A stretch of 64,000 bases of DNA from positions 49,975 to 113,974 of IMG/VR virus record IMGVR_UViG_3300010354_000001. The stretch is one strand, 5' to 3'. The notes under the pieces were generated by a model that ran no database searches, was not told where the DNA came from, and saw only the letters and a program-made list of their open reading frames with translations. Position numbers and translations under genes: made by a program. Source of the stretch: a virus. Below, piece after piece: positions 7,593 to 31,529 of the stretch; the stretch's first letter is position 1, and each line of letters begins with the position of its first letter.

Positions 7593-8222
7593 CTAAACAC
7601 CACCTTCTTTTGGGCGAAAATGTAGACTTTTCCTGTCGTGCAATTTATACACATAGCAATGTTTTGGAGGTAATGTTATAGGAGTTAGTAATCCTTGTTC
7701 TAACTTCTCTCTGAGTCTTTTAACGAAAGGTTTATACTCCCCTTTGTGTTTAGTTCTTAAAGCTCTTGAATGGTAAGTTTTACCTGTTTCTGGATCTAAA
7801 TATCCTTTGTCTTTACTACCTAAGCCTAAATACTCAAAGTTAGAAGCTTTGTAAATAATTCCTGTATGCCCATATAAGGGATCCGCATAAGATACTATTA
7901 CTTTGATAGTAGGATCTGTTTGTTTAATATGCTTTATACACTGGGCTATAACCCTACTCTCAGAATTTTTTGCAGTCTCGTCTACTAATACTAATCTCCG
8001 CAATTCTAAAACCTCATGCTCGTTCTGGGCGAAGCGTTTCCATGCCGTGGTAGACATAGCCCCAAACAGCACCGCTCCTACAAGATACCCTTCATGCTCT
8101 ACTGCAAAAGAGTAGGATACTTTAACTCCGTTAATACTGTGAGAGTAGTGTTTATTTTCAATAAAAGATTTAATCTCTGAAACCTTACACTCCCTTATGG
8201 TTAAATCTTTAGCTGGGATCAT
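7593..8222 (-). CDS. Mom-like (GNAT-fold) DNA adenine modification enzyme
   Basis: HYSH, ELRRLVL...NSESRVI, VSYADP..GHTG.IYKASNF motifs of Mu Mom family. Confidence 0.8.
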   Translation of the reverse strand: MIPAKDLTIRECKVSEIKSFIENKHYSHSINGVKVSYSFAVEHEGYLVGAVLFGAMSTTAWKRFAQNEHEVLELRRLVLVDETAKNSESRVIAQCIKHIKQTDPTIKVIVSYADPLYGHTGIIYKASNFEYLGLGSKDKGYLDPETGKTYHSRALRTKHKGEYKPFVKRLREKLEQGLLTPITLPPKHCYVYKLHDRKSLHFRPKEGGV

Positions 8223-8448: not shown

Positions 8449-8937
8449 TCATGTGCCTACCTTCTCCTTACCGCCTAAACTAATCATCCGTATCTCCCAA
8501 GTATCCTGTAACTTCATTACTACTGAACCAAAAGCAGGAGACTTGGCATTAGCCCCTATACCACTTTCAAACTTTATACGCCCATCTGGAATGAACAACT
8601 TGCCCCCTCTAGACATGCCGCAAAACCTTTTAGTGGTTATGAACTCTATAGGAAATAATACATATATTTCATTCTTTGCTTGGTTGTAGGTTTCCCAAGC
8701 TTTTTCCATAAATTTATGTTTGATGGTAAATGGTGGATTTATCCAAATTCTTTTATATGTCGTCCAGTCCTTACTTAAGCCATCAGTGTCTATAGTGTCG
8801 AAGTTTTCAATCCCGAACTCTTTAGCTTTCTCTTTAGTGGTAGCTGGATCATAATCAAATACACCAAACTGATCAACAAACCATTTAGGCGTATACCACT
8901 CATTATTTTTTGTAAACTCTACTAAACCTTTAGCCAT
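8449..8937 (-). CDS. Phage N6-adenine DNA methyltransferase (Dam_phage type)
   Basis: EWYTP, FDYDPA, DGL..DW, IWINPPF, GRIKF. Confidence 0.85.
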   Translation of the reverse strand: MAKGLVEFTKNNEWYTPKWFVDQFGVFDYDPATTKEKAKEFGIENFDTIDTDGLSKDWTTYKRIWINPPFTIKHKFMEKAWETYNQAKNEIYVLFPIEFITTKRFCGMSRGGKLFIPDGRIKFESGIGANAKSPAFGSVVMKLQDTWEIRMISLGGKEKVGT

Positions 8938-9628
8938 AATATTCTGCCTCGTCTGCCAATAAATCTGCCCTTCTTACTGTTATTAGAAAATCATTAATTA
9001 ACTCTAAGTCCGCCTTTTTATCGTTTACATAATCCCTAAAGTCTAATAATAAACCTTCATAGTAATTACATAAATTTACTGCTTCTCCTTGAGTATAGTC
9101 TTTAGCTTTTCTTATGTCAAGTAAATTTTTATAAACTTCTGTACCTTTAAAGTCAATTATATACTCGCCGTGTCTTAAGTAATGCAGTGCTTGGTAAGTT
9201 ACTCTAAGCCATGCAGAGGTATATTTTCTAGCTTTCCTGTCTTTATTTAGATCCCAGTCTCCATGCAATAATTTATTTTTTTGATTCTTAGCGTACCCTA
9301 AATGAGAGTTAAGAAGAAGTTTTGGGTTTATTATGTGTGGTAGCAAGTTTCTTAATACAGTGCCAAAATATGTTTTAACTTCTATTGGGGCGACAAACAC
9401 CTCTAAAATGGTAGGGTTATTTTGTAGGGCCATAGATAAGAAATGTTTTAACTCCCATGCTGTATTATCTTCGTTGCCTTCTATCCAGCTAGTGTTTGCT
9501 GGTTTATTGCCTACGCTTAATAATTCTCTTGTAGGAGTTGTGAATACTGCTCTATAGTCATAGTCACTGTTTTCATCAGCTAACCCATGTGCCCTAGAGC
9601 CTACTAATACTTTTAATATTTCTGTCAT
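8930..9628 (-). CDS. Pol-beta-superfamily nucleotidyltransferase (RlaP/YcgL/NrdC.11-like)
   Basis: VGSRAHGL....SDYDYRAVF, NPTILE. Confidence 0.85.
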   Translation of the reverse strand: MTEILKVLVGSRAHGLADENSDYDYRAVFTTPTRELLSVGNKPANTSWIEGNEDNTAWELKHFLSMALQNNPTILEVFVAPIEVKTYFGTVLRNLLPHIINPKLLLNSHLGYAKNQKNKLLHGDWDLNKDRKARKYTSAWLRVTYQALHYLRHGEYIIDFKGTEVYKNLLDIRKAKDYTQGEAVNLCNYYEGLLLDFRDYVNDKKADLELINDFLITVRRADLLADEAEYYG

Positions 9629-10029
9629 GTGTCGTTCTCTAATGTCTCTGCTAGTATCTGTTTAAGTTCCTCTATCTCTTGTTTGAGCTTTTCGTTTTCC
9701 TTAGCTACTATACTTTCCTTGTAGCTCTTTAGCTTAAAGTCAAATAGATACCTTAATGTCTGCCAAGGGGATATCTCCCACGCTTTTTTAATGTTCTCGA
9801 TTTGTCTTCGGATACGAGTATTTGTTATCTTCTGGCAAGTCACAAGCCACTCAATACCGTCCGAGCCTTCGTGTGTTAACTCGTAAACCTCGCAGTCAAA
9901 GGCTTTGCAAATGCGAATTAATTCTTCACACTCCTCGTTGCCTAAAGTCTTTAATTTTTGTCCTGTTTCTTTTGCGTTTACGCAATTACTTTTATAGTTT
10001 TGTATATCTTCAAATGTTATTTTTTCCAT
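9625..10029 (-). CDS. Hypothetical protein
   Basis: 134-aa ORF coupled to neighbours. Confidence 0.7.
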   Translation of the reverse strand: MEKITFEDIQNYKSNCVNAKETGQKLKTLGNEECEELIRICKAFDCEVYELTHEGSDGIEWLVTCQKITNTRIRRQIENIKKAWEISPWQTLRYLFDFKLKSYKESIVAKENEKLKQEIEELKQILAETLENDT

Positions 10030-10628
10030 ATACTGCCTCCTAAAAACTCAAATAATTTACTCAAGAGACTTTTTTGCTCTTTCTGCTCTGAGGCAGCATT
10101 AACACCGCTAACGTACATACCCACTACATCTTTTATAGTGACTGGAGTCCACCGATACCTGTATGCCCTAATGTTTTCATAAAACTGTTCGTCTGAGATT
10201 TCTTTTGCTCCTTCATAGATTAAGGGACTCTCTACGCCAAAGTGTATAAATAATTCATTACCTCTTTCGACAAGTATGTATCTTACTAAGTAAATCTGGT
10301 TCTTAGTGTACTCAGATAGCTTCAGTAGCGATGTGTGAAAATGTATTTCTTGTCCTGTGGTTAGTGTAACTTCGCTATCTAGAGAGTATGTTGTATACTT
10401 GTTTAACTCCTCTTTATATAAGTAGTCTTTAATTGCTTCAGCTACATAATCAACAGCTCCAAAAACAGCTATAGTATTAACTCCTCTAGGAAATATTAAT
10501 TCTCCCGATAAAGTAATTTTAGTAGGGAACTTATCCTGATTAATATTGCGAACTACTGGGGGAGTTAGTTTGTTTAAGTTTATACTTTTTAATTTTTTAG
10601 TTTTCATGGGGTTCCTCTCTGCTTGCAA
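10017..10628 (-). CDS. Hypothetical protein (likely start 10607)
   Basis: ORF in tightly packed operon. Confidence 0.7.
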   Translation of the reverse strand: MQAERNPMKTKKLKSINLNKLTPPVVRNINQDKFPTKITLSGELIFPRGVNTIAVFGAVDYVAEAIKDYLYKEELNKYTTYSLDSEVTLTTGQEIHFHTSLLKLSEYTKNQIYLVRYILVERGNELFIHFGVESPLIYEGAKEISDEQFYENIRAYRYRWTPVTIKDVVGMYVSGVNAASEQKEQKSLLSKLFEFLGGSIWKK

Positions 10629-10851
10629 GCAACTTGTCTGTAGCTACAGTATTTCTAGAAACCAGATCCCTCAAAGAGAGTATTTCTTTTTTGTTGTTAC
10701 TTAACTCATAATATAAAGTGGATCCGAATCTAGGCACTAGAAAGTTATCTTCCTCTGTTATGTAGATAGGGTTGCCCTCCATTACGAAAGACAGTTCATA
10801 CTCCTTGACCTCTGCTTTATTTAAGAATATTGTTTGTTTAATTTTGTGCAT
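10597..10851 (-). CDS. Hypothetical protein
   Basis: 84-aa ORF with AAGGA RBS. Confidence 0.65.
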   Translation of the reverse strand: MHKIKQTIFLNKAEVKEYELSFVMEGNPIYITEEDNFLVPRFGSTLYYELSNNKKEILSLRDLVSRNTVATDKLLASREEPHEN

Positions 10852-10906
10852 TTGTTTCCTTTTAGTTAAATGTTAGCACACTTTGGATTTTTTTGCTAAA
10901 AAATAC

Positions 10907-10963
10907 AGCAGGCATCAACGTGTTAGATTAAAAGTCTAGTGTTGTTTTTGCTGTGAGCCTGCT
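10907..10963 (-). ncRNA. Y-like RNA 3 displaying a tRNA-Lys(UUU) anticodon stem-loop mimic
   Basis: AGCAGGC-TC-ACAGCA...AT-GCCTGCT closing stem; internal TAGA-CTTTTAA-TCTA hairpin. Confidence 0.7.
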
Positions 10964-10994
10964 TAGTTAATGACGTTAGCTAGACTAACAATAT

Positions 10995-11072
10995 AGCTAC
11001 TGGTAGGATTTGAACCTACGACCTCCTCGCCCATAAAATATGCAAGGTGCTCTACCTCTGAGCTACAGTAAC
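10995..11072 (-). tRNA. tRNA-like gene with aberrant 13-nt anticodon loop (isotype undetermined)
   Basis: GTTACTG/CAGTAGC acceptor, GCTC-AGAGGTA-GAGC D arm, GTAGG-TTCAAAT-CCTAC T arm; CCTTG-CATATTTTATGGG-CGAGG anticodon arm; no CCA. Confidence 0.75.
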
Positions 11073-11080
11073 GTGATTAC

Positions 11081-11198
11081 ACCAGTCATTTTGTCTACAG
11101 ACGCCTTACCTCTTGGCTACCCTTGTTTTACGAAGGAGTTGGATTTGAACCAACGATACTCTGTCCCTAATAGATGTTTTTTGTGCTGTTAGACTGGT
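11081..11198 (-). ncRNA. Y-like RNA 2 with circularly permuted tRNA module (YrlA-like topology)
   Basis: ACCAGTC-TA-ACAGCA...AT-GACTGGT stem; order T arm (GTTGG-TTCAAAT-CCAAC), closed acceptor hairpin, D arm (TA-GCC-AAGAGGTAA-GGC); ACAGA/TCTGT stem. Confidence 0.8.
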
Positions 11199-11208
11199 TG
11201 AGTGAGAC

Positions 11209-11336
11209 TGAAGACATTTTGTTGTTTTTTGATTTGCCTTACCGATCGGCCACCACTCCTTGCGGAATGGGTTGGATTTGAACCAACATACACATCTTGT
11301 TTTTGTTTTTGTTTGTTGTGTTGCTGTCTGTCTTCA
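11209..11336 (-). ncRNA. Y-like RNA 1 with circularly permuted tRNA module (YrlA-like topology)
   Basis: TGAAGAC-AG-ACAGCA...AT-GTCTTCA stem; T arm, CCATTCC-GCAA-GGAGTGG acceptor hairpin, D arm TG-GCC-GATCGGTAA-GGC. Confidence 0.8.
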
Positions 11337-11344
11337 AAGAGAAT

Positions 11345-11459
11345 CGGACTTGACTCTCAGCTTCGCTGAGGGAGATTATCGGCTTCACAGAGTCTGCTTT
11401 TACTCTCGTATGAGTAAGTAGTCTTATTAACTCTCCACCTACGCCCATCCTAGGCGTAT
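11345..11459 (-). ncRNA. Orphan TnpB omegaRNA scaffold, copy C
   Basis: Near-identical to 37429-37544 and homologous to the tnpB 3' end; terminal hairpin replaced by CTCAGC-GAA-GCTGAG but AAGTCCG end kept. Confidence 0.75.
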
Positions 11460-12910
11460 GTTTTAATTATAGCATACTTTTCATCATTTACTATATTTTC
11501 CACTAAAGATTCTGGATTTGCATCAGCTTCTAATACATATTTCATCACTGAAGGTGAGTACCCAGAAATTAACTGAACATTTTTATCTTTACTTAAAGCT
11601 GGCATGTTTCCTGTACGCCCACTGACGTTCCAAAATACTACTTTAGGCATAGCATAGCCTGAAGCTCTAAATAAATCTTGTATATGCTCAAAGTTGGTTT
11701 TGCTTTTATTGGCTACATCAAACTCCATATCAGAGATTATTAATATGCTTTTAGGCATTTCTGATTCTGGAGAATTATGCTGTTTAGCTCTTCCTAGTAA
11801 TAACTCAAATACTTTAGTTAAATCAGTGTTATAGCTCCAATTAGCCTTTCTTAAAGCATCTACTTTTTCAAGTAAAGTGCCTTCAGGAATAGTAAAGAAA
11901 GCTGGATTCTCACTGAAAGTGCAAACTAAGTTTTTAAAGTCTCCTACTAATCTTTCTGCTAAATAGATACCTAGTCCGACAGATACATCCATAGGTTCTC
12001 CTGCCATAGACCCAGATACATCACACACTACCAGAGTAGATGATGCTTTTCCTTGTAGATAGTCTGGTAAAGCTTTCCATTGGGCATCTGCGGTTGCAGG
12101 ATCTTTATCAGTAGCTTTGACTAGATCAGAAGGAAATAATACTGAGCTATTTATCTTCTTTTCTCCTTTAACTACTGCTTCTAAATACCCGTTAAACCTC
12201 TCCTCTGAGTGTTTTCTGAACGCTTTAGAGTAGTTGCTCATGGCCTTGGAAGGAACATGCTCGTATTTTATCTCATCCCACTTCTTAGCTGACATTTGAG
12301 TCTCTACTACTTTAGTATTAGCTGCTAGTTTCTGTCTGTAAGCTTTCGGCCCGCCTGCCTGCTCTGTTAGTTTCTTTCTTAGCTTAGGATATTTTTTAGA
12401 CTTCTCCCTAGGTAGCCACTTGAAAAGTAAACTGTCAGTTGCTTCGCCAAAAGCTTCTTGTATATGTTTAAGAACTACAAGCTTAGTAAAATAGTGAGTA
12501 GTATCGCTCTCGTAGAGATCGAATAGATAATCCCATCTTGTGAAAGAGACTATGTTGTCTACGTTATTGATAATCGCACTATCGCTGACTACTCTTACTA
12601 TATCCTCTGAGTTTATCTGGCATTGGGTAGTTTCGTGTAAAGTAGCTAAGTAGTTAAGGGCCAGTTTAAAAAATCTTCTCTCTCCTAGTCCTCCCCGAAT
12701 AGCTCCTGCCCAAAAAATTAACTTAATAGTCTTTTCTCTGTCGAATTTGTAAGCTTTATCTATTAATGCAGTTATATCTACATCGCTCATCTTCCTAGAG
12801 GCTCCTGCTAGGAACACAAAATCCACTAAGGGGTTGAAAGATGATTTATTTGTTACAGCACCATTGTCTGTGTGGCCTGTGTTAGTTAAATTTTTGATTA
12901 GATTATTCAT
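11450..12910 (-). CDS. Ro60/TROVE-like helical-repeat + vWA protein (DUF2828-type)
   Basis: TDNGA, IRGGLGERRFF, KWLPRE, VVETQMS..KW.EI.YEHVPSKAM; vWA MIDAS CDVSGSM, IISDMEFD, VVFWNV. Confidence 0.85.
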   Translation of the reverse strand: MNNLIKNLTNTGHTDNGAVTNKSSFNPLVDFVFLAGASRKMSDVDITALIDKAYKFDREKTIKLIFWAGAIRGGLGERRFFKLALNYLATLHETTQCQINSEDIVRVVSDSAIINNVDNIVSFTRWDYLFDLYESDTTHYFTKLVVLKHIQEAFGEATDSLLFKWLPREKSKKYPKLRKKLTEQAGGPKAYRQKLAANTKVVETQMSAKKWDEIKYEHVPSKAMSNYSKAFRKHSEERFNGYLEAVVKGEKKINSSVLFPSDLVKATDKDPATADAQWKALPDYLQGKASSTLVVCDVSGSMAGEPMDVSVGLGIYLAERLVGDFKNLVCTFSENPAFFTIPEGTLLEKVDALRKANWSYNTDLTKVFELLLGRAKQHNSPESEMPKSILIISDMEFDVANKSKTNFEHIQDLFRASGYAMPKVVFWNVSGRTGNMPALSKDKNVQLISGYSPSVMKYVLEADANPESLVENIVNDEKYAIIKTYA

Positions 12911-12962
12911 AGGTTTGTTCCCTTTGCTTTTATTATAACAGACGTTCTAGTTTTTTGTGCTA

Positions 12963-13280
12963 TTAAATTTTACATACTTCCCGTCGACTCACTATGAGAA
13001 CTATAGCTCCTGCCCAGAAAGAGAAGAAAAGCATACAGTAATACACGAAATAATCTTCTTTTATTTTTCTTTCTGCATACATCAGGTCTACTAGATGGTT
13101 AATTCCATCCTGCCCCACCTCTAAGCACTCTGTAGCTTCTTTGTAGCATACTAATTTTTCTGTTGGGTGGACGGTTACGTAGTTTAGTGTATAGTAATCG
13201 TGTCCTCCCCCTGACCCATAATACCTTGCTTGTGCAGGGTTAGTTATTAATAATAACAACGCTAAGAGTAGAGTTCGCAT
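12963..13280 (-). CDS. Exported/membrane-anchored hypothetical protein
   Basis: Signal peptide (AQA site) and C-terminal TM helix. Confidence 0.7.
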   Translation of the reverse strand: MRTLLLALLLLITNPAQARYYGSGGGHDYYTLNYVTVHPTEKLVCYKEATECLEVGQDGINHLVDLMYAERKIKEDYFVYYCMLFFSFWAGAIVLIVSRREVCKI

Positions 13281-13726
13281 TAGCTATACTCCTGATATAT
13301 ACAAGTCTTTCTTACTTCAGGCTTAGTAAGCATAGCTACTTCGGCAAGTCTTCTTCTAGTTAACCCTTCTTCTTGTCCTGAACCCTTCTTAACATGCTGC
13401 CTCATAAGCCTAGCTGCTACATCTTTCTTACCTTGAGCTGCTAGTTTAACCACATCTGCGCAGCCTCCTCGGCCCATGTTATAGCAGTAACTAACTAAAG
13501 AGTCATGTTCATGCTGCTTAACATTTTTAAATATTAATTTAACGTGTTGAGAGTCAAGCTCCATGTGACTCTTCATTCGTTTTTTAGCTTCTACCTCATC
13601 TATACATTCCCATCTACTTCTAGCTTTAGTGCCAAAGCCGTTAGACCATTGAGATCCATCAGGGTATGCACAGCTTACGAAGCCTTCAAAACCTATTACG
13701 AAAGTCATTAATGTTTCAGTTATCAT
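13280..13726 (-). CDS. Lysozyme-like protein (GH24-related)
   Basis: FEGF...AYPD...WSNGFG, DSLVSY.YNMG, GLTRRR.AE. Confidence 0.8.
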   Translation of the reverse strand: MITETLMTFVIGFEGFVSCAYPDGSQWSNGFGTKARSRWECIDEVEAKKRMKSHMELDSQHVKLIFKNVKQHEHDSLVSYCYNMGRGGCADVVKLAAQGKKDVAARLMRQHVKKGSGQEEGLTRRRLAEVAMLTKPEVRKTCIYQEYS

Positions 13727-15865: not shown

Positions 15866-18034
15866 TTAAAATATTGATACCGATTGTAAAATTTGGCTCC
15901 AAACCTTCTCTACAAAATTACCTCCTTCTAAACCTTCAAACTGTTCTTGTGTGTAAGTCAGTAAGAAGCTTTTAGTTATTGGTAGATCGTTATACTTAGT
16001 TAATACTTCTTCTCTAGAAATCTTATCCCAGTTGCCTTTTTTATATATCTCTCTAAGCACTCTAATGTCTTTATAGATGGGAAGTTTAACTTTTAGAAAC
16101 TGACCTTCAGAATCTTCTAAGACGAAACCTTCGTCTAGCGAGTCTTTGGATCTCTCTATTAGCTTAGTCAATTCTGTAACAGTATTAGCTGTAAATACTT
16201 TAGTCTTAGGCTTAACTCCTATTGCTTTTGCTATAGATTTTACTTTCTCATAAGGCTCCCTGATAAACTCTAAGGTGTTATGCACTATATCCAGTAATAC
16301 TAGATGAGCTTTGTCGTACTTGACTATATGTGGATCTCGCACTGGGTCTATAACCTCAAACACAAAAGTAGTATTGGTGTCTTTAACATACTTAGTTAAG
16401 AACTCTACATCTAAGGTAGCGTGCAAAATGTCTTTTAAGTATTCTGAAAAATCAGAACTAGGGGAAGTTTTAGAAGTTATAAATAATTTATCTTTTTCAT
16501 GATCGTAACTAACTAAGCCTAAAAAACCATTCTCTTTAGTAAATACTTGTACTGGGTAAGTTAAGCTAGTTAGTTCTAATCCACGCTCTCCTAGATTAAA
16601 GAACTTCTCGTATCCTCTGGCTACTAATTTATTAGTTTTGTTGTTTATGAATAATCCTCTTGTTTTTATAGTTACTGAATCCCAAGATTTATCATAAAAG
16701 GCTTTTCTGGAAAAAGAATAAGAGTCTATATGATCGTATGTTTTCTTATTTATAAGTTTGCGATTTATATAGCTCTCTAAACTTTTTAGGAACTCTGGAA
16801 TATTCTCCTCTTTGCTCATAGGTGCTTTTGGGTTGTGGTATTTGATTATCTCTTGCCTATTTACATCATAAACTGAAAGATATCCTCCATGCTCTACAGA
16901 AGACTCTAAGCATACTGCACCATAATCAGTTATATAGCTATCATTACTCATGTTTCTGTGTCCGAATACTTGAGTAAAGCAAGTAAGTTCAGAACTGTGC
17001 CCATGGGGGTATAATTCCCTACCTAAACGCATATTTATACCTTTAGGGGTATAGTTATAGCCTTTTACCCCAGTCCACAAGTGTGCTGAAGGTTTTAATA
17101 CTATATCGTAGAAATTCTCTAGGTTCTGTTTCGTATCTACCCCAGCGTGAGTCACCAATATATTATTTCCCTCCTCTAACTGGACTACACAAGCATCGTA
17201 TAGTTTCTTTAGGAAATCTCTTATAGATTTTTTAGTTATCCCTGCTATTTTAGGTAGTGTTACGTTATTAAATGTACCTGATCTTGCTTTCTTGCCCATA
17301 CAGTAGTCTCTTAGATGTAGTTCGTGATTCCCCATTAATAGAGTTACGTTAGGCTTATCTGCTAATTCCATCATTCTGCGAAGCACGTAATTCTCATCAT
17401 CGCCACGATCTAAGTAGTCTCCTACAAAAACGTAATGAGTACTATCATCAAATTCACTTAAAAGTTTTTCTAGAGGTTTTCTACATCCCTGTATGTCGCC
17501 TACTATTAAAACCTTAATACTGTGCCTTTCGTACCTTATGCAAGGAATAAACCTGTTGGTCAAAAAATATGTATACAGAGTTTCTTTTAGAGTTTCCCCC
17601 TTAATGTGGTTATGATTATTTACAGCCTCATACCTTTCTTTCTGCCTATTTACCACTGATTCAGGAACGCTGTGTATTCCTCTAGTGGTATTATCTACCA
17701 GTGGAGTATTCCCAAAATCTAATACTAGAGTGTCATATAAATAGTTATCAGCTAATTCTTTAAACGGCTTCATGTCACTTTCTTTAGTGAATGTTGCATC
17801 TAATATAATTAGCTGCCCTTCATGCATTCTATATTCTACAGCTTCTTTAACTATAGCCCAGATAGATTTATCCATTCCCTGAGAGATAGTAGTTCTATCT
17901 AGTTCTACGTTATGTGTTACCCCTGCTACTGCATGTCTTATTTTATCAGGGCTTATTGTGTAGTCCTCATAGCCTTTAACGTAAGTGCTTTTACCTGTGC
18001 CTGAGACACCTCTTAAAAATATTAATAGTCTCAT
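15866..18034 (-). CDS. RNA end-healing/sealing fusion: polynucleotide kinase + metallophosphoesterase + Rnl1-type RNA ligase
   Basis: GVSGTGKST P-loop, LDATF; GDIQG/GDYLDRG/GNHE/THAG; RGLF, RGYEKFFN, KENG, FVFE, EGFVL, LKVK. Confidence 0.9.
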   Translation of the reverse strand: MRLLIFLRGVSGTGKSTYVKGYEDYTISPDKIRHAVAGVTHNVELDRTTISQGMDKSIWAIVKEAVEYRMHEGQLIILDATFTKESDMKPFKELADNYLYDTLVLDFGNTPLVDNTTRGIHSVPESVVNRQKERYEAVNNHNHIKGETLKETLYTYFLTNRFIPCIRYERHSIKVLIVGDIQGCRKPLEKLLSEFDDSTHYVFVGDYLDRGDDENYVLRRMMELADKPNVTLLMGNHELHLRDYCMGKKARSGTFNNVTLPKIAGITKKSIRDFLKKLYDACVVQLEEGNNILVTHAGVDTKQNLENFYDIVLKPSAHLWTGVKGYNYTPKGINMRLGRELYPHGHSSELTCFTQVFGHRNMSNDSYITDYGAVCLESSVEHGGYLSVYDVNRQEIIKYHNPKAPMSKEENIPEFLKSLESYINRKLINKKTYDHIDSYSFSRKAFYDKSWDSVTIKTRGLFINNKTNKLVARGYEKFFNLGERGLELTSLTYPVQVFTKENGFLGLVSYDHEKDKLFITSKTSPSSDFSEYLKDILHATLDVEFLTKYVKDTNTTFVFEVIDPVRDPHIVKYDKAHLVLLDIVHNTLEFIREPYEKVKSIAKAIGVKPKTKVFTANTVTELTKLIERSKDSLDEGFVLEDSEGQFLKVKLPIYKDIRVLREIYKKGNWDKISREEVLTKYNDLPITKSFLLTYTQEQFEGLEGGNFVEKVWSQILQSVSIF

Positions 18035-18292: not shown

Positions 18293-19135
18293 TTAAGAAA
18301 CCTTTATATTAAGTTTTTTTAATTTATAATCTTGATTCTGCCATGGGTATCCTCTAGGATTACAGACACAAGTTAAATTTTTACCTGCTATAGGCTTGTA
18401 AGTTTTTGCACTGTGTGTATGTCCGTAAACCCAGTACTGTGCAGTAGTGCCTTTAAGTAACTCTTCTCCATCAAAATTATAGAAAGATGTAGTTACCTCA
18501 TCCCTAAACTCTTTATCTTGGTGTTTTCTTTTATTACTAGGATTTATATGACTTACCATAATATCTGCTAGCTTATGCACTTGCTCTAGCTTCCTATATT
18601 CTTGTTCTGTTAGCTGATCGAATACTTTCAAGCTGGTGTATGTAGGTTCGTTCATGGTTCGCATCCAGATATCCTGTATACTCTCGTAGGTAATTAGCTG
18701 CTCAGATATATAAGATCCGTCATACCATCCCATGGCTCCTGCGATTACAGCATCGTCTATCAGCACATAACTGCCGTCAAGTAGATAAACTCCGTCTATC
18801 CCTTTTATGCTTTTAGCTAAATCTTTTACCCTATCCCAAGAACTCACATGGGTAGGTGAGTATATAGTCCATAGATCATGATTCCCTGTAACTACACATA
18901 TAGTCTCATAAATTTCTTCTCTGAGCCATTTTAAACAGTTTATAATTTGATAGTTGTGATGTCCTAAATCTCCTGCAACAATTAAATTTTTAGATTTAGG
19001 TTGCCAAGATCTAAATAGCTCCAGAAAAGTTTCTTTATTGTCAATATCTACTCTGTCTAGATTATATCTAGGAAAATTATGATCGAAAAAATCTAAATGT
19101 ATGTCTGAGCATAAATCGAAACTGACTGTCTTCAT
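18293..19135 (-). CDS. Calcineurin-like metallophosphoesterase
   Basis: SDIH, AGD, GNHD, SH, GHTH, NPRGY. Confidence 0.9.
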   Translation of the reverse strand: MKTVSFDLCSDIHLDFFDHNFPRYNLDRVDIDNKETFLELFRSWQPKSKNLIVAGDLGHHNYQIINCLKWLREEIYETICVVTGNHDLWTIYSPTHVSSWDRVKDLAKSIKGIDGVYLLDGSYVLIDDAVIAGAMGWYDGSYISEQLITYESIQDIWMRTMNEPTYTSLKVFDQLTEQEYRKLEQVHKLADIMVSHINPSNKRKHQDKEFRDEVTTSFYNFDGEELLKGTTAQYWVYGHTHSAKTYKPIAGKNLTCVCNPRGYPWQNQDYKLKKLNIKVS

Positions 19136-24346: not shown

Positions 24347-26296
24347 TTAAGTTGGGGAATTTCCGTAACGATCTCTTCGTTTTAAGTCTCTTCTGCTAGA
24401 TTCTTTTCTTTGTGGTCTACCGTTCTCGTACACCCTTGCCTGAGTCTTAATACCCCTAGTTGTAGTGAGTAAAAATAGGGAACTAACCATAGAATCTGAT
24501 ATGTCATTATGATGTCCTGGGGCGTGGTCAATTCTACCAGTCTTTTCATCTTTCTGTAAGAATATTAACTCTTCAAACAAATCCTCATTGTCTGGCATTA
24601 TTACCCTTCCTGCATATACTTCGCTCTTAAACATTTCATAAGCTCCTGGCTCGAGTCTTGTACTAAATTCTTTTGTCTTGAATCCTAACCTATTAATTCT
24701 CTGTCTTGCTGCTTTACTCTGCCACTTATCGAAACTAAATAAGACTATGTTAAGTCCATAATATTGTTTGAGCTTTACTATAAAATTAACTACTTCATCT
24801 ATATTTACCTCTATACCTTTGCTAGCTTTAATAGATATGGCAAACTCTACGATAAAGACAGGTCTTTCTTGAGATACTTTTTTACCTTCTTCGTCAAGTA
24901 CTACCTCTATAGATTTACCTAAGATCCTAGACATAGATATACCGCAAGCATCACCGCTGGTAGCTAAGTCAGTAGAAATTACTCTAGCTGCATTTTTATC
25001 CGTAGGTAAATTCTCTTCTATTACTACAGGCATACCTTCTGTGCCTGTATTGTAGTTATAATGATTAAGGAAGTACTTAAAGCCCATATCTGAGTATTTA
25101 AACATAGCCTCCTTAATAGCTTCTGGCTTACGAATAAATACGTCTACTGCTGTACTAGATACTCCTAATATATCTCTCTGGGCTTTAGGAAAATCACGTT
25201 CAAAATCTACAAGCCATGTGGTAGGCACATGCTCTATTCTTGCATTAGCTGGGTACTGTTTAGTTGCTACCTCTTCTGGACTTAGTATCTTACCTGCGTA
25301 ATCCTTGGTCGATACGAGAATAGGAAAGGTTTCTTTAGAATACTTCCACTCTGGCATAACATCCCATGCCCTTTGGTCAAATACTAATTGATTCGGACTT
25401 TTACCTAGCTTTTTTATTTGAGCTTTAACTTTACTTGTGTAATCATTCTCATGGTTTGCCGAAGAGACTACATATACACCTCCAAGTGCTATGTTTTTCT
25501 TTTCTTGTGTAGCGAACCTACTTTTATATCGGTTGAATGCCTCGTGTATAATCTTCTCTGCTTGGTCATAAGTGGCATTATCACCTCCCTCCACAGCTTG
25601 CTTAGATTTCTCTACGATAAGCATGGTGTTAGCCTCCTCTACGGAACAGGCTATCAAGTCATGCCCTAGAAGATTATTTGCATCTGGCCTAAATACTGTA
25701 AAAGTTACATTGAGATCTGTGAGTTTTAGGTCTGCCTCCAAATCCTTATCGTAGTTAACTTTATGTCTCTGGGTATATTTCATACCCAGAAACATACTTC
25801 TCACTGGATTATATACGTTCTCTCTTGCGGTTTTCACCTTGGCGGCAGTACATCCTAGCACTATAGGTTTATCTTTCAATAACCCAAATACTAGATGTGG
25901 GTTAGGAAAACAAGTCAAACAGTATAGCGTGTAACATAAAGCTATATTAGTTCTTAAAGTCTTACCTATACCGATAGCCCCAGTCAGTATTACTTCTGTA
26001 GGTTGAATTTCCCCAGTCCAAATATCGGGACACATTACCTTTAGATCTGCTACTATTTGCGGCCAGTAGGTGTTAGTTCCCAAGTATTCGGGATCTGTCA
26101 GAAACTGTTCGATAGTTACTGGTAACCTAGTCATTAACCTTATAGCTTTTATAAAGTTAGGGTTATTCCTATATATAAGTTCATCTACAGCATTTTCTAA
26201 AACACGCCTAAGTCTAACAGGATCTTCACTAATCCCAGCATCTATAGCTTCTTCTAAACTAGCTAAAGTTTCTGCTCTTATCTGTTCTAACTGCAA
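24347..26296 (-). CDS. terL: Terminase large subunit
   Basis: LTGAIGIGKT Walker A, SVEE Walker B, STDLA..GD nuclease, FDKWQS, IDHAPGHHNDISDS. Confidence 0.85.
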   Translation of the reverse strand: MQLEQIRAETLASLEEAIDAGISEDPVRLRRVLENAVDELIYRNNPNFIKAIRLMTRLPVTIEQFLTDPEYLGTNTYWPQIVADLKVMCPDIWTGEIQPTEVILTGAIGIGKTLRTNIALCYTLYCLTCFPNPHLVFGLLKDKPIVLGCTAAKVKTARENVYNPVRSMFLGMKYTQRHKVNYDKDLEADLKLTDLNVTFTVFRPDANNLLGHDLIACSVEEANTMLIVEKSKQAVEGGDNATYDQAEKIIHEAFNRYKSRFATQEKKNIALGGVYVVSSANHENDYTSKVKAQIKKLGKSPNQLVFDQRAWDVMPEWKYSKETFPILVSTKDYAGKILSPEEVATKQYPANARIEHVPTTWLVDFERDFPKAQRDILGVSSTAVDVFIRKPEAIKEAMFKYSDMGFKYFLNHYNYNTGTEGMPVVIEENLPTDKNAARVISTDLATSGDACGISMSRILGKSIEVVLDEEGKKVSQERPVFIVEFAISIKASKGIEVNIDEVVNFIVKLKQYYGLNIVLFSFDKWQSKAARQRINRLGFKTKEFSTRLEPGAYEMFKSEVYAGRVIMPDNEDLFEELIFLQKDEKTGRIDHAPGHHNDISDSMVSSLFLLTTTRGIKTQARVYENGRPQRKESSRRDLKRRDRYGNSPT

Positions 26297-27115
26297 TTAA
26301 TTCACCTGCATTGTGTCTAGCACTTCTGCTAATTCTATAAGTCCTTCTTGAACTCTACGCTCAAATTCTTTTCTGGTTATCTTTAATTCTGCGGCCATTT
26401 TAGTGTCGGATAAGCCCTCAGCGTAGTATCCAAACTTCCACTTTAGAGATTCTGCTAATTCTGCAGGCAACTCAGCTAGAGCCAAGTTAACTGATCTTCT
26501 TCTATCTAAATCTTCCTCCGCAATTTCCTCTACTGCTTCTAGTGTCTCCACTAACGTAGTGGTACTACTATCCTTAGTAGAAACAAATTCGTCTAGGGAG
26601 TCTATTGTAGTTAAGCCTTCTTTAACTAAATCTAACTTATCTTTATTTATCCCTAACCCTAACATTAGTTCTTGGTCTGTTGGGGTTCTTTCCAGTTGCT
26701 TACTTAAATTAGCATAAAGTTTTTTAAACTTATTCATGGTATCTACCATGTGGTTAGGTATTCTAATAGATCTTGCTTTATCTGTTAAAGCTCTAGATAT
26801 AACTTGCCTAATCCAAAAAGTAGAATATGTGCTAAACTTATTGTTCGTGGAAAGGTCAAACTTATCTAAAGACTTAATCAAACCTGTGGTTCCTTCTTGT
26901 ATTAAATCTAAAAATGAAACTCCCTTGTTTACATGCTTTTTTGCGATAGATACTACCAACCTAAGATTATGTTTTATTAACAAATCCTTATAGTGCATAT
27001 CGCCTGCTTGATACTTTCGCAAATAGTCATACTCAACCTCTTTGCTGAGCACCTTATACTTATTTAATTTTCCTAAAAATATTTTTATTTCTTCATCATT
27101 TACTTCATTCAACAA
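26297..27115 (-). CDS. RNA polymerase sigma-70 family factor (RpoD-like regions 1.2-4)
   Basis: [19 protein letters not shown]...KFD, KFSTY..WIRQ.I.RA, R.IRIP.H. Confidence 0.92.
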
Positions 27116-31346: not shown

Positions 31347-31529
31347 CTACTTCTTTGAAATTAAGGCTATAATTGCTGTAAGTGCCAGTAGCCCCATACC
31401 TACAGCATATGGAATCAGCACTCTATGGGAATAGTCGAAATCAGTACACAAATTTATCCACATGGATACCACTACAGTAAATAGCACTGATATTGCTATG
31501 CCTATCGAACTTACTGACACGCTACACAT
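31347..31529 (-). CDS. Small 2-TM membrane protein (start uncertain)
   Basis: Two hydrophobic helices. Confidence 0.5.
   Translation of the reverse strand: MCSVSVSSIGIAISVLFTVVVSMWINLCTDFDYSHRVLIPYAVGMGLLALTAIIALISKK

What the first reader, a model, noticed from the sequence alone, without database searches (positions are those of the whole stretch)
10907..12910. Ro-like vWA protein followed by an array of Y-like RNAs that each display a different part of a tRNA
Seen: downstream of the DUF2828/TROVE-like gene are three minus-strand elements with one frame: 7-bp closing stem, NN, ACAGCA, A/C-rich linker, cargo, AT, stem. The stems differ completely yet all pair (TGAAGAC/GTCTTCA, ACCAGTC/GACTGGT, AGCAGGC/GCCTGCT). 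Two carry a circularly permuted tRNA (T arm, closed acceptor hairpin, D arm; no anticodon loop or 3' CCA end), the third only an anticodon hairpin. Known: bacterial Ro60 binds YrlA RNAs with this permuted topology, but via a GNCGAA-type motif that is absent here. Inference: a separate Ro-like RNP family where the protein grips the stem-ACAGCA handle and presents interchangeable tRNA-mimic modules, e.g. as decoys for or adaptors to tRNA-targeting defence or repair enzymes.
Basis: partly seen in the sequence, partly recalled or inferred. Interest (0 to 1): 0.92.

Follow-up and report, generated by a model that had tools for sequence, protein, structure and literature searches.

The report
Phage Ro60-like protein with handle-tagged tRNA-mimic RNAs
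A phage gene for a ring-shaped, Ro60-like RNA-binding protein is followed by three small RNA genes that share one conserved "handle" and each display a different piece of a tRNA; the same protein-RNA pairing recurs in very many phages and seems to be an undescribed cousin of the Ro/Y-RNA particle, probably used in the fight over tRNAs between phage and host.

Summary
Observation confirmed; interpretation largely supported.

- **The RNAs.** Three co-oriented elements lie downstream of the DUF2828/DUF7788 gene (11450-12910, minus strand). Each has a 7-bp terminal stem, 2 nt, ACAGCA, a G-poor linker, a cargo, the 3' stem strand and an unpaired G.
- **The cargoes.** Two carry a circularly permuted tRNA top half. 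The third carries a CUUUUAA (Lys-type) anticodon hairpin.
- **The protein.** It is predicted to fold like Ro60: Z 18.6 to 1YVR, and all top hits are Ro60.
- **The family.** The handle matches no Rfam family, YrlA included.
  - In 92 loci fetched around homologous genes, 127 handles lie on the gene's strand and 6 on the other.
  - In five whole phage genomes and two Mb-sized MAGs, every model hit lies beside the gene.
  - T4, T5 and Bxz1 (a phage with a true TROVE Ro) have neither the gene nor the handle.
- **A 71%-identical relative.** It keeps the array but swaps one cargo. It shows compensatory changes in the tRNA-like stems. Its third RNA differs almost only at the anticodon (UUU to GCU).

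Best reading: a second, Ro/Y-like RNP whose handle binds the ring and whose modules mimic tRNA parts, as decoys or adaptors in tRNA cleavage and repair conflicts. Binding and expression are not shown. This scan found the same family earlier in other genomes. I found no paper describing the RNAs.

The parts
11450..12910 (-). Gene for a 486-aa Ro60-like protein (Pfam DUF2828 + DUF7788/vWA; PHROG 850 'RNA-binding protein')
   Evidence: Pfam DUF7788 1.4e-47 and DUF2828 1.4e-36, no TROVE hit. PHROG 850 at 7.7e-123. AF2 model built on 20 homologues, pLDDT 80.7. The Foldseek top 13 hits are all Ro60. VIA-align Z 18.6, 405 residues, rmsd 4.0 to 1YVR. MIDAS D297-x-S299-x-S301 is invariant.
12932..12940 (-). 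TGTTATAAT, an extended -10-like box about 20 nt upstream of the gene's ribosome-binding site (possible promoter of a gene+RNA unit)
   Evidence: Read from the sequence. The consensus scan did not call it because no -35 box is present. Inference only.
11337..11449 (-). 113-nt ORF-free leader between the stop codon and RNA 1, with a hairpin CTCAGC-GAA-GCTGAG at 11356-11370
   Evidence: Its fold is not better than shuffles, z -0.09. Weak sub-threshold RAGATH-18 match, 21.8 bits against a cut-off of 44.9. Absent from the 71% relative, where the first handle starts 8 nt after the stop codon. Probably not an essential part.
11209..11336 (-). Handle RNA 1 (128 nt). 5' stem 11330-11336; ACAGCA 11322-11327; T arm 11271-11287; closed acceptor hairpin with GCAA loop 11253-11270; D arm 11236-11250; 3' stem 11209-11215. 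The next base (11208) is the unpaired G.
   Evidence: Fold z -4.07. The rotated sequence is called tRNA-like by ARAGORN at -ps90 with correct acceptor, D and T arms and no true anticodon arm.
11081..11198 (-). Handle RNA 2 (118 nt). 5' stem 11192-11198; ACAGCA 11184-11189; linking helix ACAGA/TCTGT 11160-11164 with 11097-11101; T arm 11138-11154; closed acceptor hairpin 11120-11137; D arm 11103-11117; 3' stem 11081-11087.
   Evidence: The homologue in L080 (5530-5645) has the identical handle stem. Its acceptor hairpin changed from UCCUU:AAGGG to CCGCU:AGCGG, with pairing kept through changes on both sides.
10995..11072 (-). Handle-less tRNA-like gene with canonical acceptor, D and T arms but a 13-nt anticodon loop (CAUAUUUUAUGGG) that can zip up to a UUU triloop
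   Evidence: Rfam tRNA 53.6 bits, with 13 nt where the model has 7. ARAGORN calls it 'Ile(tat)'. The homologue L080 5653-5726 has compensatory changes in the acceptor and T stems and a different, also aberrant, anticodon arm.
10907..10963 (-). Handle RNA 3 (57 nt). 5' stem 10957-10963; ACAGCA 10949-10954; anticodon-type hairpin TAGA-CTTTTAA-TCTA 10924-10938; 3' stem 10907-10913; then GTATTTTTT.
   Evidence: Covariance model R1 scores it 44.3 bits, E 2e-7. The homologue L080 5816-5872 is identical except for one linker base and the two anticodon positions (CUUUUAA to CUGCUAA).
15866..18034 (-). Context: fused polynucleotide kinase - metallophosphoesterase - Rnl1-type RNA ligase (722 aa), a tRNA end-healing and sealing enzyme
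   Evidence: Pfam AAA_33 2.7e-13, Metallophos 3.2e-15, RNA_lig_T4_1 2.7e-35.
8930..9628 (-). Context: RlaP-family nucleotidyltransferase ('RNA repair pathway DNA polymerase beta family')
   Evidence: Pfam PF10127 at 5.5e-22.

Best explanation
The locus encodes a ribonucleoprotein of the Ro60/Y-RNA type, built from a different protein family and a different RNA family.

Protein. It is DUF2828 + DUF7788, a HEAT-repeat ring closed by a vWA domain with an intact MIDAS site.

RNAs. Three small RNAs are made from the co-oriented array just downstream. Each has a common handle:
- the RNA's two ends pair in a 7-bp stem;
- 3 variable nt and single-stranded CAGCAA follow on the 5' side;
- an A-rich run precedes the 3' strand, and an unpaired G follows it.

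Inferred steps.
1. The ring binds this handle, as Ro60 binds the terminal stem and conserved 5'-strand motif of Y RNAs.
2. The variable middle of each RNA is then displayed. Here that is two tRNA 'top halves' (T arm, closed acceptor stem, D arm) and one tRNA-Lys-type anticodon stem-loop.
3. The displayed modules engage proteins that recognise those parts of tRNA. They either soak up host tRNA-cleaving defence nucleases (decoy) or bring tRNA-processing and repair enzymes to RNAs held by the ring (adaptor). The neighbouring kinase-phosphoesterase-Rnl1 ligase and RlaP are candidate repair partners.
4. A handle-less tRNA-like RNA with a disabled anticodon loop in the same array probably belongs to the same toolkit.

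Shown here: the anatomy, the predicted fold, the conservation, and the tight two-way genomic coupling of handle and gene.
Inferred: transcription and processing, physical binding, and the biological role.
For: Anatomy: three elements with one frame.

Protein fold:
- AF2 pLDDT 80.7.
- Foldseek top 13 hits are all Ro60, including phage phiLo Ro60 9L5Y/9KOP (E 1.7e-7, TM 0.56-0.58).
- VIA-align Z 18.6, 405 aligned residues, to 1YVR; the best non-Ro rows reach Z 9 and cover only the vWA domain.

Coupling of handle and gene:
- Non-circular test on 28 loci: 45 of 94 ACAGCA on the gene strand have a 7-bp stem at spacing 2, against 1 of 65 on the other strand and 4.5 in simulations.
- Model R1: 50 of 50 hits and, on an independent set of 40 genome contigs, 39 of 39 hits on the gene strand.
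- Whole phage genomes wV8, A511, Gardann, 6ec and Tsamsa: 13 hits, all within about 3 kb of the gene, none elsewhere in 565 kb.
- In a 9.2-Mb and a 3.6-Mb MAG the only hits lie beside the gene.
- T4, T5 and Bxz1 lack both gene and handle.

Features I did not select for are conserved: the 3' G in 43 of 45 elements, A after the motif in 40 of 45, and a linker almost free of G.

tRNA mimicry:
- The Rfam tRNA model aligns positions 7-64 and 8-63 inside two handles.
- 12 of 40 short cargoes have CU-NNN-AA loops against a 1.2% background, p 4e-14.

Close relative L080: compensatory changes in the acceptor hairpin, cargo 1 replaced, and the anticodon triplet changed in RNA 3.

Context: RlaP and a Pnk-phosphoesterase-Rnl1 fusion lie nearby. 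RtcB lies 1.3 kb from the A511 gene.

Literature:
- Bas63 gp130 is described as Ro60-like, sits just upstream of the tRNA genes and counters the ppl defence (PMC11482910).
- In the paper on Listeria phage CKA15, gene CKA15_055 matches Rsr by HHpred, its product is found in virions, and it lies downstream of highly transcribed non-coding regions (PMC12282133).
Against: - No binding, expression or end-mapping data exist for these RNAs.
- In CKA15 the only abundant non-coding region with published coordinates (26,236-26,727) is not the handle array, which lies at 25,201-25,621.
- The Ro60 relationship rests on a predicted structure. Sequence searches against PDB give only E 0.11, at the MIDAS site.
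- Model R1 does not find RNAs 1 and 2 because of their long cargo. Their membership rests on the pattern.
- 34 of 92 loci have no strict-pattern handle within the flanks fetched, though many of these have variant handles found by R1.
- A host protein, or another phage protein of the same gene island, could be the real handle binder.
- Nothing here separates decoy from adaptor.
Confidence: 0.72

Rival explanations
1. The handle RNAs are real small RNAs but do not work with the DUF2828 protein. They act alone, or with a host factor, as tRNA-part decoys or processing substrates, and they sit near the gene only because both belong to the phage's tRNA/RNA-repair island.
For: Elements often lie inside tRNA gene arrays. 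The 7-bp stem plus an unpaired 3' base resembles an acceptor stem with a discriminator base, which host RNase P, RNase Z or the CCA-adding enzyme could recognise on their own (comparison from general tRNA knowledge). No binding data exist.
Against: tRNA-rich phages without the gene (T4, T5, Bxz1) have no handle. Staphylococcus phage 6ec has one tRNA gene in the 9.4-kb stretch read, yet three handles directly after the gene. In Mb-sized genomes the only hits abut the gene. The strand is always shared.
Confidence: 0.13
2. The handles are cis-acting operators in the untranslated parts of the DUF2828 mRNA. The protein binds them to regulate its own synthesis, and the tRNA-like cargoes are only structural filler.
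For: In many loci the last handle ends 10-35 nt before the start codon, as in L003, A511, Campylobacter NCTC12673 and Synechococcus B3. Here the array follows the gene with no obvious terminator between them.
Against: Arrays hold up to 7 handles. Handles lie upstream, downstream or up to 3 kb away among tRNA genes. Cargoes are under selection as tRNA mimics, shown by compensatory changes, CU-NNN-AA loops and tRNA-model hits. In A511-type phages the array has its own TTGACA-17-TATCAT box.
Confidence: 0.07
3. RNAs 1 and 2 are circularly permuted tRNA genes, as in Cyanidioschyzon merolae. They would be cut and re-joined, for example by the neighbouring Rnl1 ligase, into working tRNAs, with the handle as the processing signal.
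For: The order T arm, acceptor, D arm is a true circular permutation. An RNA ligase with end-healing domains lies 4.5 kb away. The genome has only four tRNA-type genes.
Against: RNA 1 has no anticodon arm at all. ARAGORN can build one only from the A-rich linker, and only below its default threshold. The acceptor end is closed by a loop and lacks CCA. RNA 3 and most family members carry only a hairpin. The T loop of the L080 homologue has G where tRNAs have the invariant residue 55.
Confidence: 0.04
4. The elements are decayed tRNA genes and chance inverted repeats without function.
For: About 5 stem+ACAGCA matches per 114 kb arise by chance. The fold energy of RNA 2 is not exceptional, z -1.05.
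Against: The family is conserved across phages of Proteobacteria, Firmicutes, Actinobacteria and Cyanobacteria, and in MAG contigs. There is complete strand bias, covariation, and conserved flanking bases that were not used in the search.
Confidence: 0.01

Closest known systems
Ro60/Rsr with Y RNAs, especially the tRNA-like YrlA of bacteria and mycobacteriophages (Chen et al. 2014, PMC4201824; Rfam RF02553)
   Same: - A ring protein of HEAT repeats plus a vWA domain.
- Partner RNA genes next to the protein gene on the same strand.
- RNA ends paired in a terminal stem, with a conserved motif on the 5' side.
- A variable module that in YrlA is likewise a permuted tRNA mimic (T arm, closed acceptor, D arm).
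- Neighbourhood of RNA-repair genes, as in the Salmonella rsr-yrlBA-rtcBA operon.
   Different: - The protein matches Pfam DUF2828/DUF7788, not TROVE.
- There is no GNCGAAN0-1G motif and no RF02553 hit over the cut-off.
- The conserved motif is stem-N3-CAGCAA plus a 3' G.
- There are several RNAs per locus with different cargoes, including bare anticodon hairpins and acceptor-less tRNA bodies.
- Bxz1, which has a true TROVE Ro, has no handle.
Thermus phage phiLo Ro60 with Yrl1/Yrl2 (PMC12135203; PDB 9KOP, 9L5Y)
   Same: - A phage-encoded Ro60-type ring with partner RNA genes adjacent to it.
- It is the best Foldseek match of the model (E 1.7e-7, TM 0.56-0.58).
- It forms complexes with host PNPase, a precedent for a phage RNP that engages host RNA enzymes.
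   Different: - phiLo Ro60 is a TROVE-domain protein.
- Its RNAs were picked by a CGAA motif in a large internal bulge and are not described as tRNA-part mimics.
- Sequence similarity to the present family is marginal (E 0.11).
Published notes on members of this protein family: Bas63 gp130 (PMC11482910), Listeria phage CKA15_055 (PMC12282133), 'Ro-like RNA binding protein' of cluster L mycobacteriophages (PMC13148394)
   Same: - They appear to be the same protein family. wV8 (same genus as Bas63), the Listeria A511/P100 group and cluster L phage Gardann all match the window's protein at E 1e-60 to 1e-70.
- The authors already call the proteins Ro60/Rsr-like and guess that nearby tRNA-like or abundant non-coding RNAs are Y RNAs.
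- gp130 counters the ppl defence.
- LeBron gp53 is toxic when overproduced.
   Different: - None of these papers defines the RNAs, the handle motif or the cargo classes.
- The identity of Bas63 gp130 with this family is inferred from genus and gene position. It was not checked on the Bas63 record.
Phage tRNA-based counter-defence (T4 Pnkp/Rnl1 repair of PrrC-cut tRNA-Lys; phage tRNAs that resist or replace cleaved host tRNAs)
   Same: - Same battlefield: anticodon loops of Lys(UUU)-type tRNAs.
- A kinase-phosphoesterase-Rnl1 enzyme is encoded nearby.
- The cargo anticodons seen in the family (UUU, UUC, GUU, GAU and others) include those I recall, from my own knowledge, as targets of anticodon nucleases.
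   Different: Here the RNAs cannot decode. They are fragments or disabled mimics tied to a protein handle, so they would act as decoys or adaptors rather than as replacement tRNAs. This is inference.

Membership tests
Ro60 / TROVE protein family (Pfam PF05731) | Significant match to the TROVE domain profile | tested here: not met
   Pfam scan at E<=0.1 gives only DUF7788, DUF2828 and a weak VWA_2 match. A profile of 20 homologues against PDB sequences gives phiLo Ro60 at E 0.11, over the MIDAS stretch only.
Ro60 / TROVE protein family (Pfam PF05731) | Fold: N-terminal HEAT-repeat ring closed by a C-terminal vWA domain | tested here: met
   On a predicted model (pLDDT 80.7), the Foldseek top 13 hits are all Ro60 over 516-586 columns. 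VIA-align gives Z 18.6, 16.3 and 11.9 to 1YVR, 9KOP and 2NVO, spanning residues 8-464.
Ro60 / TROVE protein family (Pfam PF05731) | MIDAS motif (DxSxS) in the vWA domain | tested here: met
   D297, S299 and S301 are invariant in 20 homologues.
Ro60 / TROVE protein family (Pfam PF05731) | Binds Y RNA on the outer ring surface and single-stranded RNA ends in the central hole | not testable with these tools
   Needs EMSA, CLIP or a solved complex.
YrlA Y RNA (Rfam RF02553; Chen et al. 2014) | Score at or above the family's gathering cut-off (69 bits) | tested here: not met
   No hit on 10000-13500 even at E<=10. The best hit in the whole genome is 15.7 bits, on the tandem tRNA-Trp/Gly genes. Caveat: the model also stays below its cut-off on Bxz1 (32.5 bits), so it is a narrow test.
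YrlA Y RNA (Rfam RF02553; Chen et al. 2014) | GNCGAAN0-1G motif near the 5' end | tested here: not met
   No match in 10880-11449 on the minus strand. The only CGAA lies in a leader hairpin loop at 11362-11365.
YrlA Y RNA (Rfam RF02553; Chen et al. 2014) | tRNA-like domain in permuted order (T arm, closed acceptor stem, D arm) | tested here: met
   Met for RNAs 1 and 2, with compensatory support from L080. Not met for RNA 3, which carries only a hairpin.
YrlA Y RNA (Rfam RF02553; Chen et al. 2014) | Encoded within about 4 kb of, and on the same strand as, a Ro60 orthologue | tested here: inconclusive
   The RNAs lie 114-2000 nt downstream on the same strand. However, the neighbour is a Ro60-like DUF2828 protein, not a TROVE orthologue.
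Handle RNAs of DUF2828 loci (undescribed family; this scan's working definition) | 7-bp stem formed by the RNA's two ends, different in sequence in every copy | tested here: met
   3 of 3 here. Across 19 aligned members all 7 pairs change on both sides and 100% of cells pair, against 32-40% when partners are slid (that set was chosen for pairing).
Handle RNAs of DUF2828 loci (undescribed family; this scan's working definition) | CAGCAA three nt after the 5' strand, and an unpaired G right after the 3' strand | tested here: met
   3 of 3 here for both the 3-nt spacing and the 3' G; the full CAGCAA is present in RNAs 1 and 3, while RNA 2 reads CAGCAC. Family-wide, the A after ACAGCA (the last base of CAGCAA) is present in 40 of 45 elements and the 3' G in 43 of 45. 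Variants of the first motif base are listed.
Handle RNAs of DUF2828 loci (undescribed family; this scan's working definition) | Same strand as, and close to, a DUF2828 gene | tested here: met
   negative controls.
Decoding tRNA (for 10995-11072) | Cloverleaf with a 7-nt anticodon loop | tested here: not met
   Acceptor, D and T arms fit the model (53.6 bits), but the anticodon loop has 13 nt. The L080 homologue also has an aberrant anticodon arm.
Circularly permuted tRNA genes that mature into working tRNAs (Cyanidioschyzon type) | All four arms present, including a normal anticodon arm, once the ends are re-joined | tested here: not met
   Rotated RNAs 1 and 2 are not called at ARAGORN's default threshold. 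At 90% of it, the 'anticodon arm' is built from linker sequence.

The most novel reading that the evidence does not exclude
The handle is a universal docking tag that loads interchangeable RNA 'baits' onto a Ro-like ring. The baits are copies of exactly those tRNA parts that host immune nucleases or tRNA enzymes recognise. In the anticodon-hairpin baits the three anticodon bases set which enemy is neutralised, so phages retarget the system by point changes (UUU to GCU between this phage and its 71% relative) or by swapping modules. That would be a programmable, RNA-based anti-defence system and a new functional class of Y-like RNPs.
Probability: 0.3. Interest if true: 0.93.

Novelty: new variant of a known kind. 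Interest (0 to 1): 0.85.

Why it matters
Ro60/Y-RNA particles are known from animals, some bacteria and a few phages, but what their tRNA-like modules are for is still open.

This locus belongs to a much larger, separate family. There are 2,462 protein clusters at 50% identity with E<=1e-30 and 710 phage records. They include well-studied phages: FelixO1-like coliphages, Listeria A511/P100, cluster L mycobacteriophages, Campylobacter phages and staphylococcal phages.

The partner RNAs of this family have, as far as the searchable literature shows, never been defined. They are easy to recognise, come several per genome, and display clean sub-parts of tRNA. That makes the old question directly testable in laboratory phage-host pairs: delete or mutate single RNAs, then ask which host factor or defence system each bait meets.

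The finding also means that many 'pseudo-tRNA' or unannotated gaps in phage tRNA regions are genes of this family. It gives a candidate mechanism for the reported anti-defence phenotype of Bas63 gp130.

Tried and rejected
- **Single-sequence AF2.** The model was useless (pLDDT 41). The alignment-based model was used instead.
- **blastn of the RNA region against phages.** No match; this phage has no close relative there. Its DNA polymerase is at most 33% identical to any record.
- **Promoter and terminator scan.** Nothing convincing on the minus strand.
  - The only support is a RAGATH-18 match at 21.8 bits against a cut-off of 44.9.
  - The fold is no better than shuffles.
  - The stretch is missing in the 71% relative.
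  - Rejected.
- **Model R1 on the window.** It finds only RNA 3. The long cargoes of RNAs 1 and 2 defeat a 60-position model, so they rest on the pattern scan.
- **ARAGORN at its default threshold.** It does not call the rotated RNAs 1 and 2.
- **CKA15 RNA-seq as proof of expression.**
  - The one abundant region with coordinates (26,236-26,727) lies about 600 nt upstream of the handle array.
  - It matches no Rfam family.
  - Expression of the handles is therefore still unshown.
- **Pairing of CAGC with GUUG in RNA 3.** It is conserved in L080, but the 3' run is A-rich in most members. I treat the motif as single-stranded.
- **The look-up of encoding contigs was closed.** The relative of P0001 was reached through the metagenome scan instead.
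- **Guessing the Bas63 accession failed.** The link to gp130 stays inferred.
- **My regex sorting of cargo classes was crude.** The classes given in this report come from reading the folds.

Full report
**1. What is in the window**

The genome is a complete 113,974-bp virus record with terminal repeats, 36% G+C, and no close relative among deposited phages.

On the minus strand, ORF 11450-12910 encodes a 486-aa protein. It matches Pfam DUF7788 (1.4e-47) and DUF2828 (1.4e-36) and PHROG 850 'RNA-binding protein', but not TROVE.

From 11449 down to 10907 there is no credible ORF. That stretch holds, in order:
- a 113-nt leader;
- three elements of one design;
- one tRNA-like gene, lying between the second and third elements.

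*The three elements*

| Element | Coordinates | Closing stem | Spacer |
|---|---|---|---|
| 1 | 11209-11336 | TGAAGAC / GTCTTCA | AG |
| 2 | 11081-11198 | ACCAGTC / GACTGGT | TA |
| 3 | 10907-10963 | AGCAGGC / GCCTGCT | TC |

In each, the spacer is followed by ACAGCA, an A/C-rich linker, the cargo, AT, the 3' strand and then G.

*The cargoes*
- Cargoes 1 and 2 are a canonical T arm, an acceptor-like stem closed by a loop (a GCAA tetraloop in RNA 1), and a 3-bp D arm with the GG dinucleotide. This is a circular permutation of the upper half of a tRNA.
- When the sequences are rotated to open at the acceptor loop, ARAGORN recognises acceptor, D and T arms at 90% of its threshold. It can find no real anticodon arm. 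It finds nothing in the natural order.
- Cargo 3 is a 4-bp hairpin with the loop CUUUUAA, the loop of a tRNA-Lys(UUU) anticodon arm.

**2. Is it more than chance?**

A single 'stem + ACAGCA' match is not rare. Markov simulations of this genome give about five per genome. The case rests on clustering and, above all, on comparison.

I fetched DNA around homologues of the protein from four sources:
- IMG/VR (27 loci);
- eight annotated phages;
- GTDB genomes (40 loci);
- metagenomes (17 loci).

*Non-circular count over 28 non-redundant loci (203 kb)*

| Where | ACAGCA occurrences | With a perfect 7-bp partner at spacing 2 |
|---|---|---|
| Gene strand | 94 | 45 |
| Opposite strand | 65 | 1 |
| Simulations | 52 | 4.5 |

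*Other counts*
- Over all 92 loci the strict pattern gives 127 elements on the gene strand and 6 on the other.
- A covariance model built from 19 short members (R1) gave 50 hits at E<=1 in the first set. In the independent GTDB set, which played no part in training, it gave 39. Every hit was on the gene's strand.

*Features I did not select for are conserved*
- An unpaired G follows the 3' strand in 43 of 45 elements.
- An A follows the motif in 40 of 45.
- The linker is almost free of G.
- The outer three base pairs prefer A-G-R / Y-C-U.

R1 hits that fail the strict pattern show that the first A is variable, so the invariant core is CAGCAA.

**3. From the RNA back to the gene**

*Genomes with the gene*
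- Five complete phage genomes were searched with R1: Escherichia wV8, Listeria A511, Mycobacterium Gardann, Staphylococcus 6ec and Bacillus Tsamsa, 565 kb in all.
- This gave 13 hits at E<=0.1. All lie within about 3 kb of the DUF2828 gene on its strand, and none lie elsewhere.
- In a 9.2-Mb and a 3.6-Mb MAG the only hits lie beside the gene.

*Genomes without the gene*
- T4, T5 and mycobacteriophage Bxz1 all have tRNA gene clusters.
- Bxz1 is one of the phages with a canonical Ro.
- They have no DUF2828 homologue and no hit better than E 0.06.

The coupling is specific and two-way.

**4. The protein**

- With an alignment of 20 homologues, AlphaFold2 gives a confident model: pLDDT 80.7, pTM 0.79.
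- The top 13 Foldseek matches in the PDB are all Ro60. They are the Thermus phage phiLo protein, Xenopus and human Ro60, and Deinococcus Rsr, each aligned over the whole length.
- The second aligner gives Z 18.6 (405 residues, rmsd 4.0) to 1YVR. Unrelated vWA domains stop at Z 9.
- The MIDAS residues are invariant. So is an N-terminal W-x4-R-G-G-x-G-E-R block, along with several basic and aromatic residues.
- Sequence-level similarity to solved Ro60 is marginal (E 0.11).

So the protein works like Ro60 in shape, but it is not a member of the TROVE family as Pfam defines it. The family is very large: 2,462 clusters at 50% identity with E<=1e-30.

**5. The RNAs are not a known family**

- No Rfam model matches the elements, even at E<=10.
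- YrlA (RF02553) scores 15.7 bits at best in this genome, and that hit lies on tandem tRNA genes.
- In 143 kb of related loci only tRNA and tmRNA models pass their cut-offs.
- The YrlA signature GNCGAAN0-1G is absent.

The same Rfam run was informative in another way. The tRNA model aligns positions 7-64 and 8-63 to the insides of two handles (L009 1459-1517 and L005 2140-2193). Those cargoes are whole tRNA bodies whose acceptor stem is replaced by the handle.

**6. Cargo classes across the family**

- Permuted tRNA top halves, some with an extra anticodon-type arm.
- Acceptor-less tRNA bodies.
- Short hairpins; about half of all elements are 75 nt or shorter.
- A recurrent GUGAGUUUCGA...AAAAAGUAG module.
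- A few larger structured inserts.

Among the short cargoes, 40 have a hairpin closing a 7-nt loop. Twelve of these loops read CU-NNN-AA, the anticodon-loop signature. The background among all such hairpins in the same DNA is 1.2%, giving p = 4e-14. The 'anticodons' seen are GAU, GCU, GUU, UAC, UGA, UUC and UUU, with further UGU, CUU and GUA among the variant handles.

**7. A close relative sharpens the picture**

Metagenome contig JACCDP010127002.1 (L080) encodes a protein 71% identical to this one and carries a homologous array.

| Position in the array | Window | L080 |
|---|---|---|
| First RNA | Permuted tRNA top half | Short hairpin RNA with loop UUGUAAU, starting 8 nt after the stop codon; the window's 113-nt leader is not conserved |
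| Second RNA | Handle stem ACCAGTC / GACTGGT; acceptor hairpin UCCUU:AAGGG; link helix | Same handle stem; acceptor hairpin CCGCU:AGCGG (two pairs changed on both sides, one on one side); one compensated change in the link helix |
| tRNA-like gene | 13-nt anticodon loop | Compensatory changes in acceptor and T stems; a quite different but equally abnormal anticodon arm |
| Third RNA | Loop CUUUUAA | Identical over 59 nt except one linker base and the first two anticodon positions: CUGCUAA |

Modules are thus swapped, structures are kept, and the anticodon triplet is what changes. This rests on a single pair of genomes, so it is suggestive only.

**8. Context**

- Within 5 kb on the same strand lie an RlaP-family nucleotidyltransferase (8930-9628), a fused kinase-phosphoesterase-Rnl1 RNA ligase (15866-18034) and a second phosphoesterase (18293-19135).
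- In A511 an RtcB ligase lies 1.3 kb from the gene.
- This parallels the bacterial rsr-yrlA-rtcBA arrangement (PMC7790460, PMC4201824).

**9. Literature**

- Chen et al. 2014 described YrlA next to TROVE genes in 254 bacteria and 22 phages.
- phiLo Ro60 with two CGAA-type RNAs has been solved.
- For the present protein family there are three remarks in passing.
  - Bas63 gp130 is 'structurally similar to Ro60', lies just upstream of the tRNA genes and counters the ppl defence. The authors guess that some tRNA genes may be Y RNAs.
  - Listeria phage CKA15_055 matches Rsr by HHpred, is found in purified virions, and lies downstream of three very abundant non-coding transcripts.
- None of these defines the RNAs. 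Searches for DUF2828, or for the motif together with Y RNA, found nothing relevant.
- I checked the CKA15 case.
  - Its handle array is at 25,201-25,621.
  - The one abundant region given with coordinates is 26,236-26,727.
  - That region is a different, about 490-nt non-coding stretch with its own strong promoter.
  - The handle array of the A511/cka14 type does have a TTGACA-17-TATCAT box 20 nt upstream.
  - Expression is therefore plausible but not shown.
- This scan has met the same family before in at least six other genomes, with the same reading. My tests here were made independently of those notes.

**10. How it most likely works**

*Shown*
- A Ro60-shaped protein gene and a family of stem-closed RNAs with a fixed handle travel together, on one strand, across very distant phages.
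- The RNAs carry tRNA parts that are kept by selection.

*Inferred*
- The ring binds the handle.
- The RNA is cut out of a longer transcript near the stem ends.
- The displayed tRNA part engages a tRNA-recognising protein.

I favour a role in tRNA conflicts, either as a decoy for tRNA-cleaving defences or as an adaptor for repair. Four observations point that way:
- the anticodon-loop baits;
- the neighbouring healing and sealing enzymes;
- the Bas63 anti-defence phenotype;
- the anticodon change between close relatives.

I put about 0.7 on the partnership and about 0.3-0.4 on the decoy/adaptor role.

The rivals are less well supported, for the reasons listed under each: RNAs independent of the protein, cis-regulatory operators, permuted genes that mature into real tRNAs, or decay products.

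**11. Verdict**

It is a new variant of a known kind (Ro/Y RNP): a distinct protein family, a distinct RNA handle and modular cargo. It is widespread, apparently undescribed at the RNA level, and directly testable.

Noticed in passing
window 10995-11072 (-); L080 5653-5726: A tRNA-like gene inside the array has normal acceptor, D and T arms but a 13-nt anticodon loop that can zip up to a UUU triloop. Its homologue in the 71% relative keeps the arms through compensatory changes yet has a different, equally abnormal anticodon arm. It looks like a maintained non-decoding tRNA mimic without a handle.
   Followed up: partly
window 11337-11449 (-): The 113-nt leader between the stop codon and RNA 1 has a hairpin whose loop holds the only CGAA of the region (11356-11370) and a sub-threshold RAGATH-18 match. 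It is absent from the close relative, so it is probably not part of the system.
   Followed up: partly
window 15866-18034 (-): A single 722-aa chain joins a P-loop kinase, a calcineurin-like phosphoesterase and an Rnl1-type RNA ligase. This is the T4 Pnkp and Rnl1 activities fused into one protein.
   Followed up: partly
window 31511-34423 (-) and 34826-36796 (-): Both ribonucleotide reductase subunit genes are over-long. The large subunit has an HNH-endonuclease-like insert at residues 466-547. The small subunit has an insert of about 330 residues (202-536). These are likely inteins or in-frame homing elements.
   Followed up: no
window 7593-8222 (-) and 8449-8937 (-): Mom-family (9e-42) and Dam-family (2.5e-14) genes lie just downstream of the RlaP gene. 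They are DNA-modification functions next to the RNA module.
   Followed up: no
L029 2440-3003 (Listeria phage A511; equals CKA15 26,236-26,727): An ORF-free stretch of about 540 nt, downstream of tRNA-Pro and behind a consensus TTGACA promoter, corresponds to the most abundant transcript reported for phage CKA15. It matches no Rfam family and carries no handle. It may be a separate large non-coding RNA.
   Followed up: partly
L010 2604-2767, L018 2820-2914, L021 454-575: Three unrelated contigs carry handle RNAs with a shared cargo module (GUGAGUUUCGA-n-CUCAC followed by AAAAAGUAG) that is not obviously tRNA-like.
   Followed up: no
window 10907-10963 (-); L080 5816-5872: In RNA 3 and its homologue, CAGC of the handle motif can pair with GUUG just before the 3' strand. 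This is not seen in most family members, where that run is A-rich.
   Followed up: partly
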